Below are positions 1,312 to 1,348 of a stretch of DNA of 63,595 nucleotides, in pieces (positions within the stretch are counted from its first letter, which is position 1; each line of letters begins with the position of its first letter). The stretch lies in the sequence record MK373795.1; one strand, 5' to 3'. The position numbers and the translations under genes were made by a program. This DNA is from Escherichia phage vB_EcoS_HdSG1. The notes beneath the pieces were generated by a model. The model was not told where the DNA came from. It did no database searches and worked only from the letters and a program-made list of their open reading frames with translations.

Positions 1312-1340
1312 ATATTATTGCCCACTGTTACTATGGGCAA
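1312..1340 (-). promoter_or_regulatory. sigma70-like promoter overlapping a palindromic motif
   Basis: Minus strand reads TTGCCC, 17-nt spacer, TAATAT, about 25 nt upstream of the 1286 start; overlaps palindrome ATTGCCCA-N9-TGGGCAAT at 1317..1342. Confidence 0.4.
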
Positions 1341-1348
1341 TGTATATG

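What the first reader, a model, noticed from the sequence alone, without database searches (positions are those of the whole stretch)
1317..1342. Conserved palindromic motif TTGCCCA-N9-TGGGCAA repeated upstream of repeat-operon genes
ATTGCCCACTGTTACTATGGGCAATG (1317..1342) has perfect 8-bp inverted arms; a near-identical GCCCACTGTTACAATGGGCAA lies at 2548..2569, and a rearranged partial copy (GTGGGCA ... TAGTAACAG) at 3162..3185. Both full copies are intergenic and about 25 to 40 nt upstream of a gene start. The first overlaps a good sigma70-like promoter (TTGCCC, 17 nt, TAATAT). This looks like an operator for a dimeric regulator or an RNA processing hairpin.
Basis: seen in the sequence. Interest (0 to 1): 0.5.

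Follow-up and report, generated by a model that had tools for sequence, protein, structure and literature searches.

The report
Conserved intercistronic mRNA hairpin in phage early operon
The repeated palindrome is the top of a roughly 20-base-pair RNA hairpin that sits between genes of a small early operon in the terminal repeat of a 9g-like coliphage; related phages keep it through compensatory mutations, so it is a structured mRNA element, most likely a processing or stability signal, and not a repressor binding site.

Summary
The window is a Nonagvirus (9g-like) coliphage genome with an exact 3363-bp direct terminal repeat. The motif is real: two independent copies (1318-1340, 2546-2568), each repeated in the right terminal repeat. 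Both lie on the minus (sense) strand, in the only two sizeable intercistronic gaps of an eight-gene operon.

Relatives at about 54% protein identity keep the stem through compensatory changes (C-G, G-C, A-U, U-A at one position). Loop length varies from 8 to 10 nt and the loop sequence is hypervariable. Every one-sided change in the upper stem gives G·U on the sense strand, never A·C. The palindrome is the upper stem of a 17-22 bp interrupted hairpin, and its lower stem holds or abuts the upstream stop codon.

The same architecture occurs in Seuratvirus, Craquatrovirus and T5-like pre-early operons. There is no Rfam match.

This refutes a fixed-spacing dimer operator. The "good" sigma70 promoter is an 8/12 match (360 such matches in the genome) and is absent at site 2 and in the Klebsiella-phage orthologues. 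The "third copy" is not a member of the family.

Best reading: an intercistronic mRNA processing or stability hairpin of the T7 RNase III type, laid out like a PeSL cassette. The function is inferred, not shown.

The parts
1318..1340 (-). Site 1 core: upper stem (UUGCCCA/UGGGCAA; 8 bp with the flanking A-U, 9 with the U.G closing pair) and 9-nt loop. This is the finding itself.
   Evidence: conserved in all Nonagvirus relatives
1303..1357 (-). Site 1 full interrupted hairpin. Lower stem GAGUG (1354-1350, contains stop codon UGA 1351-1349) / CACUU (1310-1306). Middle helix CAUAU (1348-1344) / AUAUG (1315-1311). 2x1 internal loop. Upper stem. 21 bp in the MFE fold.
   Evidence: -23.5 kcal/mol; the GAGU segment is kept even where it is non-coding (ChristophMerian) or in another reading frame (L133)
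1300..1314 (-). Site 1 alternative small hairpin B (UAUGC-ACUUC-GCAUA). Mutually exclusive with the middle and lower helices of the long hairpin.
   Evidence: three compensatory pairs between site 1 and site 2 versions
2546..2568 (-). Site 2 core: inner stem GCCCA/UGGGC (extended by U.G and U-A in the fold) and loop. The outer arm bases are mismatched (UU/UC internal loop).
2529..2582 (-). Site 2 full interrupted hairpin (UAGCG-UGCUA-A-UGG-UU-GCCCA...UGGGC-UC-CCA-C-UAGCA-AUC-CGCUA). 21 bp. Starts directly after the stop codon UAA (2585-2583) and includes a second in-frame UAG.
   Evidence: -28.7 kcal/mol; the UGG/CCA helix covaries to CAG/CUG in L155
2528..2542 (-). Site 2 hairpin B (CUAGC-AAUCC-GCUAG), an alternative to the outermost helix. 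Present alone as CCAGC-AAUC-GCUGG upstream of the 155-aa gene homologue in L145/L146.
61550..61572 (-). Copy of site 1 in the right terminal repeat (identical)
62778..62800 (-). Copy of site 2 in the right terminal repeat (identical)
3191..3218 (-). Best sigma70-like promoter candidate for the operon that contains both hairpins (ATGACT-16-TATAAT, 10/12)
   Evidence: conserved in relatives
695..721 (-). Intrinsic terminator closing the operon (11-bp stem followed by a U run)
   Evidence: annotated as a terminator in phage HdK1
3162..3185 (.). Real sequence similarity, lying in the first ~25 nt of the operon leader, but NOT a member of the hairpin family.
   Evidence: sequence; covariance model finds nothing here at E<=10; invariant in relatives whose hairpin loops differ

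Best explanation
The palindrome is the upper stem of a conserved interrupted RNA hairpin of about 20 bp. It forms in the sense (minus-strand) polycistronic mRNA of the small-gene operon in the terminal repeat.

Proposed mechanism:
1. Host RNA polymerase starts at the strong promoter at 3218-3191 and stops at the terminator at 721-695.
2. In the only two long intercistronic gaps the mRNA folds into a three-part helix (lower stem, A/U-rich middle helix, small internal loop, G/C-rich upper stem, free loop).
3. The 5' strand of this helix contains or abuts the stop codon of the upstream gene.
4. I propose it works like the intercistronic RNase III sites of the T7 early region. It is cut at or near the internal loop, or it simply blocks 3' exonucleases. 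Either way the transcript is divided into separately stable pieces (gene 1 | genes 2-6 | genes 7-8). The hairpin is left as a protective 3' end on the upstream piece, and an unstructured leader with a Shine-Dalgarno sequence is left on the downstream piece.

Shown here: the hairpin is under selection as a structure, on the sense strand, at this position.
Inferred: the nuclease involved and the effect on stability and expression.
For: - Position: both copies sit in the only sizeable gaps of the minus-strand operon, directly after stop codons and 37-39 nt before the next ATG.
- Covariation within Nonagvirus and the Klebsiella-phage relatives: GCCCA/UGGGC becomes GCGCA/UGCGC, GCACA/UGUGC or GCUCA/UGAGC. 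Pair 17-32 is CG:15, GC:4, AU:1, UA:1 with no broken cell.
- The eighth pair is A-U, G-C (L146, L153) or U-A (FritzHoffmann site 2).
- The outer helix UGG/CCA becomes CAG/CUG in L155.
- Across 16 members from four or more phage groups: 91% of cells paired, 9 of 14 pairs with changes on both sides, covariation score 0.443 against 0.179 in shuffles (0/500) and at most 0.168 when partners are slid.
- Strand: in upper-stem pairs 20-27 there are 20 G.U/U.G cells and no A.C cell. The sense strand folds more stably than the antisense strand in 13 of 14 members, by up to 10 kcal/mol.
- Loop: length 8-10 nt and hypervariable in sequence even among phages about 95% identical.
- Size: 17-22 bp in every member, about two helical turns, which is the size of RNase III substrates (established knowledge).
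- Spread: the same architecture sits in intercistronic gaps of the homologous operon in Seuratvirus and Craquatrovirus, and in the terminal-repeat pre-early operon of T5-like phages and of T5 itself.
- The lower-stem sequence GAGU is kept where it is non-coding or in a different reading frame.
Against: - No transcript ends or cleavage data exist for any of these phages (literature).
- RNase III has little sequence specificity, so it does not explain why the flanks UAUAC-AUUGC / GCAAU-AAUA are shared by hairpins of unrelated phages. A sigma70 -35/-10 pair would explain that.
- The helices are short and interrupted compared with classic T7 sites.
- Antideterminant rules for RNase III were not tested.
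- Part of the double-sided change counted reflects single old events between paralogous sites.
- The register of the lower stem differs between members, so it could only be judged from single-sequence folds.
- Sense and antisense fold energies are nearly equal for the two window copies themselves (-23.5/-22.8 and -28.7/-28.2).
Confidence: 0.45

Rival explanations
1. PeSL-like composite cassette. The hairpin is embedded between the -35 (TTGCCC) and -10 (TAATAT or AATAAT) of an internal sigma70 promoter. Read-through transcripts are attenuated or processed at the hairpin, and fresh transcription restarts for the downstream genes. The repeated cassette is also a recombination point for gene shuffling.
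For: - The layout is the one described for PeSLs of T4-type phages: upstream stop codon, A/T-rich stretch, -35, stem-loop between -35 and -10, Shine-Dalgarno sequence, ATG (PMC2839356).
- TTGC at the stem base and AATAAT/TAATAT just 3' of the stem recur in unrelated phages, with TTGC-to--10 spacers of 16-18 in about 7 of 11 members (my count on the sequences).
- T5 promoters often use TTGCTT as -35 (own knowledge).
- There are signs of recombination at the cassettes: a chimeric site 2 with a different upstream gene in FritzHoffmann, a site-2-type loop in site 1 of ChristophMerian/SE1/SP8, and an E. coli-type site 1 in a Klebsiella-type backbone (L145, L146, L153).
Against: - The window match is only 8/12, one of 360 in the genome.
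- Site 2 has no -10 (CCCACU). The Klebsiella-phage site 1 has no -35 (AGCGCC, GUGCUC). PSTCR4 copy 2 and slur01 lack a -35. Several members have TAATAA, without the essential final T.
- The first base of the -10 changes T to C or A together with its pairing partner, so pairing is what is kept, not the hexamer.
- There are only two copies per genome, not a dense array.
- Most indel junctions are not inside the cassettes.
Confidence: 0.22
2. The hairpin is a cis-acting RNA signal read by a protein or by the ribosome: a binding site for a phage early protein (antitermination or translational control), or a termination-sensing switch. In the switch version, a ribosome stopping in the lower stem frees UAUGC (1314-1310) to pair with GCAUA (1304-1300) and so unmasks the start codon of the next gene.
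For: - The stop codon lies in or next to the lower stem in every member.
- The internal-loop region is sequence-conserved across genera.
- One copy always precedes the homologue of the 155-aa protein (phrog_17772) in Nonagvirus, Seuratvirus and Craquatrovirus.
- Alternative pairings exist at site 1. Hairpin B is supported by three compensatory pairs, and GCAUAGUUA pairs with the AUG region in the MFE fold.
Against: - The loop is hypervariable, unlike boxB or coat-protein operators.
- No RNA-binding domain was found in any operon protein (no Pfam hit; PHROGs all of unknown function).
- The switch geometry is not seen at site 2 or in other genera.
- There is no internal terminator to antiterminate.
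Confidence: 0.15
3. DNA-level element: a hairpin or cruciform in phage DNA that serves recombination, replication priming or packaging inside the terminal repeat.
For: It lies in the terminal repeat. The cassettes show chimeras. T5 terminal repeats are also rich in inverted repeats (own knowledge).
Against: - Strong one-strand wobble bias (20 G.U against 0 A.C). T.G pairs are poor in DNA.
- It is always intercistronic, in the sense orientation and directly after a stop codon.
- It is not at the repeat boundary, which is at 3363.
Confidence: 0.06
4. Operator for a dimeric DNA-binding regulator.
For: Perfect inverted repeat overlapping promoter-like hexamers at site 1. Symmetric changes could in principle follow a co-evolving regulator.
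Against: - Arm spacing is 8, 9 or 10 nt.
- At site 2 the arms are asymmetric (UUGCCCA against UGGGCUC).
- Arms differ between phages with a 97% identical neighbouring gene (L155).
- Mismatches are always of the G.U type on one strand.
- The palindrome continues into a 20-bp interrupted helix whose outer parts differ completely between copies.
- The centre-to-centre distance of 16 bp would put the half-sites on opposite faces of the helix (established geometry).
Confidence: 0.04

Closest known systems
PeSL (promoter-early stem-loop) cassettes of T4-type phages RB49/phi1 (Arbiol et al. 2010, PMC2839356; Comeau et al. 2014, PMC4122927)
   Same: Both are intergenic cassettes between small early genes of unknown function. 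The order of parts is the same: upstream stop codon, A/T-rich stretch, -35, stem-loop placed between -35 and -10 (stems with G-T pairs), Shine-Dalgarno sequence, ATG. Both are repeated within a genome, and both show chimeric copies and gene replacement at cassettes.
   Different: PeSL promoters match the sigma70 consensus and were shown to be active, and their stem-loops terminate transcription. Here the promoter match is 8/12 and is absent from half of the family. There are only two copies per genome. The stems are not polyG/polyC. The helix extends well beyond the promoter hexamers. The host phages are siphoviruses with terminal repeats. No sequence homology is claimed.
RNase III processing sites of the T7/T3 early region (R0.3, R0.5, R1, R1.1, R1.3; own knowledge: Dunn and Studier 1983; Nicholson reviews)
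   Same: Both sit between cistrons of a host-polymerase-transcribed early operon. Both are about two helical turns of RNA interrupted by a small asymmetric internal loop. In both, the copies within a genome resemble each other. Both lack a U run.
   Different: Cleavage has not been shown here. The helices are shorter and more interrupted. The flanks around the internal loop are sequence-conserved across unrelated phages, which RNase III recognition alone would not require.
REP/BIME palindromes in E. coli operons (own knowledge: malE-malF type 3' stabilisers)
   Same: Both are repeated imperfect palindromes directly downstream of stop codons inside operons. REP elements act as RNA hairpins that protect upstream mRNA from 3' exonucleases.
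   Different: No sequence similarity. Phage-borne, with two copies per genome. Longer interrupted stem.
lambda nut boxB and HK022 put RNAs (own knowledge)
   Same: Repeated RNA hairpins in early transcripts, with stems conserved between copies (boxB stem GCCCU/AGGGC).
   Different: boxB needs a defined pentaloop and a boxA. Here the loop is 8-10 nt and hypervariable, and the operon has no internal terminator. No Rfam family matches.

Membership tests
PeSL cassette | [quoted passage not shown] | tested here: met
   stop at 1349 / ATG at 1280; stop at 2583 / ATG at 2506
PeSL cassette | Strong sigma70-consensus promoter | tested here: not met
   8/12 match, one of 360 in the genome. Below the threshold. 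Absent at site 2 and in the Klebsiella-phage site 1.
PeSL cassette | Stable stem-loop between or overlapping -35 and -10 | tested here: met
   covariation
PeSL cassette | Stem-loop terminates transcription; recombination between copies (mini-circles) | not testable with these tools
   Only indirect signs of exchange (FritzHoffmann chimera)
RNase III processing site | About 20 bp of double-stranded RNA, possibly with an internal loop | tested here: met
   17-22 bp in 14 of 14 members
RNase III processing site | Cleavage by RNase III; rnc-dependent transcript pattern | not testable with these tools
   No data found in the literature
RNase III processing site | No antideterminant base pairs in the proximal and distal boxes | not tested
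   The cleavage site is unknown, so the boxes cannot be placed
Intrinsic (Rho-independent) terminator | G+C-rich stem followed by a U run | tested here: not met
   One search finds only 721-695. The tails after the hairpins are CGCAUAGUUAAC and GAACAACAUGG.
Palindromic operator of a dimeric regulator | Conserved half-site sequence at fixed spacing | tested here: not met
   Spacing of 8, 9 or 10 nt; half-sites change in a compensatory way; asymmetric at site 2
nut/boxB | 5-bp stem with a defined GNRA-like pentaloop, plus a boxA | tested here: not met
   Loop of 8-10 nt, hypervariable; no Rfam hit
Any Rfam 15 family | Covariance-model match | tested here: not met
   nothing at either site at E<=10

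The most novel reading that the evidence does not exclude
The hairpins belong to one cross-family class of regulatory RNA cassette with the consensus YWUAU-AC-AUUGC...GCAAU-A-AUAWR. The class is shared, and probably exchanged, between the terminal-repeat or early operons of Queuovirinae, Craquatrovirus, T5-like and other enterobacterial phages. The cassette would be read both as DNA (a weak sigma70 promoter whose hexamers are held inside the stem) and as RNA (a processing or termination-sensing hairpin whose lower stem is opened by the ribosome stopping at the upstream gene). It would thereby time and apportion the first proteins made after DNA entry.
Probability: 0.15. Interest if true: 0.6.

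Novelty: new member of a known kind. Interest (0 to 1): 0.4.

Why it matters
Very little is known about gene expression in 9g-like phages (Queuovirinae). I found no promoter, transcript or RNA-element data for them. This analysis gives a conserved, covariation-supported RNA structure in the first operon likely to be expressed after infection. Counterparts occur in Seuratvirus, Craquatrovirus and the pre-early operon of T5-like phages, and no Rfam family covers it.

If it is a processing or stability signal, it explains how one promoter can give different amounts of eight small takeover proteins. It also offers a compact part for engineering these phages.

The result also removes a false lead. 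There is no evidence for a repressor operator here, so a search for a helix-turn-helix partner (for example the CDS at 52722-52901) is not warranted.

Tried and rejected
- Genome-wide scan with the exact motif in IMG/VR. Of 120+ hits nearly all are chance (14 specified bases); only L101, L119 and L121 are Nonagvirus.
- Covariance model of hairpin A+B searched over the whole window with filters off. No further copies, and the 'third copy' is not detected.
- Long-range pairing between the operon leader (CUGUUACUA...UGCCCAC, 3185-3160) and the site 1 loop or arm. The complementarity is real, but the leader is invariant while the loops vary, so this is not supported.
- Sigma54 reading (GG-N10-GC in UGGGCA-N5-AUGCA). 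Considered by eye; the spacing fits, but this low-information pattern is expected by chance several times per genome. Dropped.
- Known E. coli regulator boxes (LexA, DnaA, CRP and others). Compared from memory; none fits.
- PreQ1 riboswitch, considered because the phage carries queuosine-pathway genes. No Rfam hit.
- RNase E consensus (RN|WUU). No consistent match in the flanks.
- Intrinsic terminator on either strand. No U run.
- Integron attC-like site-specific recombination. Indel junctions do not share a fixed point.
- Function of the operon proteins. No Pfam hit, and all PHROGs are of unknown function.
- Literature on Nonagvirus and T5 transcripts. Nothing on these hairpins.
- Vid5 locus. 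Not used, because the annotated strand conflicts with the tblastn match.

Full report
WHAT THE WINDOW IS
The first 3363 bases are repeated exactly at the right end (1..3363 = 60233..63595, no mismatch). The region 700-3500 is 88-96% identical to Nonagvirus phages: 9g, JenK1, JenP1, JenP2, HdK1, BRET, FritzHoffmann, ChristophMerian and SE1. The window is therefore a complete 9g-like (Queuovirinae) coliphage genome with a 3.36-kb direct terminal repeat, like HdK1.

Inside the repeat, eight small genes lie on the minus strand. The best sigma70-like promoter is at 3218-3191 (ATGACT-16-TATAAT, 10/12). A strong intrinsic terminator closes the operon at 721-695. The products have no Pfam match. They fall into PHROGs of unknown function and include two paralogous pairs (phrog_13865 twice, phrog_3199 twice).

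THE OBSERVATION
The four pattern matches are two independent copies plus their terminal-repeat duplicates. A perfect 8-bp palindrome is not unusual on its own (23 in the unique genome).

Read on the sense (minus) strand, the two copies occupy the only two sizeable intercistronic gaps of the operon.
- Site 1 lies between the stop codon at 1349 and the ATG at 1280.
- Site 2 lies between the stop codon at 2583 and the ATG at 2506.

It is an 8/12 match, of which the genome has 360.

CLOSE RELATIVES
In 12 annotated Nonagvirus genomes and about 20 metagenomic or viral contigs, both sites are present at the same places. The arms are invariant while the centre of the loop changes freely:
- Site 2: UUGUAACAG, UUGUCACAG, UUGUUACAG, UUGUCGCAG.
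- Site 1: UAGUAACAG, UAGUAACCG, UAGUAACGG, UUAUCACCG, UAGUCACAG.

The two sites share a longer cassette: the palindrome, a small second hairpin (site 1 UAUGC-ACUUC-GCAUA; site 2 CUAGC-AAUCC-GCUAG), a leader and a Shine-Dalgarno sequence.

MORE DISTANT RELATIVES DECIDE THE NATURE OF THE ELEMENT
Klebsiella and Escherichia phages whose neighbouring protein is about 54% identical (L133-L135, L144, L153) keep a hairpin at both places, but with changed and still complementary arms.
- Site 2: GCGCA/UGCGC and GCACA/UGUGC.
- Site 1: GCGCCCA/UGGGCGU and GUGCUCA/UGAGCAU.
- Loops are 8, 9 or 10 nt.

L155 has a neighbouring gene 97% identical to the window's. It has GCGCA/UGCGC and also changes the outer helix from UGG/CCA to CAG/CUG. 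The eighth pair of site 1 is A-U in most phages, G-C in L146 and L153, and U-A in FritzHoffmann site 2.

On an alignment of 21 sequences, the third stem pair shows four pair types with no broken cell. The covariation score is 0.301, against 0.109 in shuffles (0/500). RNAalifold recovers the same stems.

Variable arm spacing, compensatory arm changes between near-identical phages, and the asymmetric arms of site 2 argue against a fixed-geometry operator.

THE PALINDROME IS ONLY THE TIP
Minimum-energy folds of both window sites and of the orthologues give a long interrupted hairpin of 17-22 bp. Site 1 folds as:
- lower stem GAGUG/CACUU, with the stop codon UGA inside the 5' strand;
- a bulged A;
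- middle helix CAUAU/AUAUG;
- a 2x1 internal loop;
- the 8-9 bp upper stem.

Site 2 folds as UAGCG-UGCUA-A-UGG-UU-GCCCA...UGGGC-UC-CCA-C-UAGCA-AUC-CGCUA and starts directly after the UAA stop.

This explains why GAGU upstream of site 1 is conserved even where it is non-coding (ChristophMerian) or read in a different frame (L133).

At site 1 the middle and lower helices and the small hairpin B use the same UAUGC segment, so they are alternatives. Which one forms in vivo cannot be decided here.

STRAND
Across 16 diverse members, 91% of cells pair and 9 of 14 pairs show changes on both sides. The score is 0.443, against 0.179 in shuffles (0/500) and at most 0.168 for slid partners. Every one-sided change gives a G.U or U.G pair on the sense strand. 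In upper-stem pairs 20-27 there are 20 wobble cells and no A.C cell.

The sense strand folds more stably than the antisense strand in 13 of 14 members, for example -18.0 against -7.7 and -19.2 against -13.1 kcal/mol. For the two window copies the difference is small.

The structure is therefore selected on the transcribed strand. This fits an RNA element, not a duplex protein site or a symmetric cruciform.

SPREAD OF THE FAMILY
The same three-part hairpin sits directly after a stop codon in intercistronic gaps of the homologous small-gene operon in:
- Seuratvirus: VogelGryff, slur01, yong3;
- Craquatrovirus: PSTCR4 and PSTCR7, three copies each.

One copy always lies just upstream of the homologue of the 155-aa protein (phrog_17772). 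The members share the flanks YWUAU-AC-AUUGC ... GCAAU-A-AUAWR, while the top of the stem, the loop and the lower stem differ.

A scan of IMG/VR with those flanks also found perfect hairpins in phages that are not related. One is the T5-like Salmonella phage S130/S131, in the gap after gene A2 of the pre-early operon inside the T5-type terminal repeat. All pre-early gaps of S131 and of T5 itself carry hairpins of 20-25 bp.

No Rfam family matches. A covariance model of the window's cassette finds no further copy in the 60-kb genome.

THE 'THIRD COPY'
GTGGGCA...TAGTAACAG at 3162-3185 is real sequence. On the sense strand it lies in the first about 25 nt after the -10 of the operon promoter and reads CUGUUACUAUCCACCUGCCCAC. 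That is complementary to the site 1 loop and identical to part of the 5' arm.

It does not fold like the family and is not found by the model. It stays invariant in relatives whose loops differ. I treat it as unexplained similarity, not as a copy.

WHAT IT MOST LIKELY DOES
Shown:
- a sense-strand RNA hairpin of about two helical turns, under selection;
- always intercistronic, with the upstream stop codon in or beside its lower stem;
- no U run after it;
- a free loop.

Inferred: it is an mRNA processing or stability signal of the kind known from the T7 early region (RNase III sites; own knowledge) or from REP elements. It would divide the operon mRNA into separately stable parts and leave a protective 3' hairpin on the upstream part. 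I put this at 0.45.

The main rival, at 0.22, is the PeSL design of T4-type phages. Its published layout is stop codon, A/T-rich stretch, -35, stem-loop between -35 and -10, Shine-Dalgarno sequence, ATG (PMC2839356), which is the layout of site 1. This reading would explain why TTGC and AATAAT/TAATAT recur at the stem base in unrelated phages. Against it:
- the hexamers are weak in the window;
- they are missing at site 2, in the Klebsiella-phage site 1, in PSTCR4 copy 2 and in slur01;
- the first -10 base covaries with its pairing partner.

The two readings are not exclusive.

Other rivals: a protein- or ribosome-sensed RNA switch (0.15), a DNA-level hairpin (0.06) and the dimer operator (0.04).

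NOVELTY AND VERDICT
I found no description of these hairpins in the 9g paper (PMC4276943), which predicts only the divergent promoters, or in papers on BASEL, T5 or BF23 phages. The element is an undescribed member of a known kind: intercistronic phage mRNA hairpins and PeSL-like cassettes. It is of moderate interest because it is conserved across several phage groups and sits in the first-expressed operon. Its function remains to be tested by transcript-end mapping in wild-type and rnc hosts.

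Noticed in passing
window 1-3363 and 60233-63595: Exact 3363-bp direct terminal repeat (no mismatch). The window is a complete Nonagvirus genome with both repeat copies. Every feature in the first 3.36 kb is therefore counted twice in whole-window statistics.
   Followed up: yes
window 3070-3144: A 26-nt tandem repeat, 2.8 copies (consensus GTGCCGAAAATACCAGGTAGCAGCAC). Each copy has a near-palindromic core TACCWGGTA. It lies between the divergent promoters, in the leader of the minus-strand operon, and is conserved in all Nonagvirus relatives. It looks more like a true protein-binding array (operator or iteron) than the hairpins do.
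   Followed up: partly
window 3160-3185 (minus strand, operon leader): CUGUUACUAUCCACCUGCCCAC directly after the -10. Nine nt are complementary to the site 1 loop and seven nt are identical to its 5' arm. A second CUGUUAC lies at 3113-3119. Invariant in relatives, with no covariation with the loops. Meaning unknown.
   Followed up: partly
L008 (FritzHoffmann) 2861-2883 and flanks: Site 2 of this phage is a chimera: site-1-type left flank and arms, a site-2-type loop and leader, and a different upstream gene (bas20_0077). ChristophMerian, SE1 and SP8 carry a site-2-type AAUCC loop in site 1. L145, L146 and L153 carry an E. coli-type site 1 in a Klebsiella-type backbone. The cassettes appear to be exchange points.
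   Followed up: partly
L175 (Salmonella phage S131) 2397-2495, 2902-2990, 3187-3276; L176 (T5) 918-1014, 1421-1478, 1675-1772: Every intercistronic gap of the T5-type pre-early operon (around A2 and A1, inside the terminal repeat) holds a 20-25 bp hairpin just after the stop codon. The S131 hairpin after A2 has the same flanks as window site 1 (UAUACAUUGCCC...GGGCAAUAAUAU). None is annotated in the records.
   Followed up: partly
window 745-993 / 1524-1769 and 1023-1280 / 2583-2888 (minus strand): Two pairs of paralogous small genes in the operon (phrog_3199 twice, phrog_13865 twice). The phrog_13865 pair shares an N-terminal basic motif IT(R/K)RIIGKR. The 85-aa copy is precisely absent (start codon to start codon) in 9g, SE1, SP8 and JenP1.
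   Followed up: partly
window 2039-2506 (minus strand): The 155-aa protein (phrog_17772) has a C-terminal domain found widely in 56-63 kb siphoviruses of Pseudomonas, Vibrio, Providencia, Pantoea, Alteromonas and others (117 records). One record calls it a 'transcriptional activator'. The annotated upstream ATG (2521) is probably wrong: the Shine-Dalgarno sequence precedes the ATG at 2506, and in the Klebsiella phages the upstream ATG is followed by a stop codon.
   Followed up: partly
window 1-690: About 690 bp between the operon terminator and the left genome end carry no gene annotated in relatives (the HdK1 record starts with the terminator).
   Followed up: no
window 60042-60085: A/T-rich direct repeats (TTGCAATACAAAAA twice) and an 8-bp palindrome TTGCAATA/TATTGCAA, about 150 bp before the right terminal-repeat boundary.
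   Followed up: no
L136 (Pantoea phage Vid5) 2429-3010: The tblastn match to the 155-aa protein lies on the strand opposite to the annotated CDS Vid5_gp80. Both strands have long ORFs, so the annotation of this block may be on the wrong strand.
   Followed up: partly
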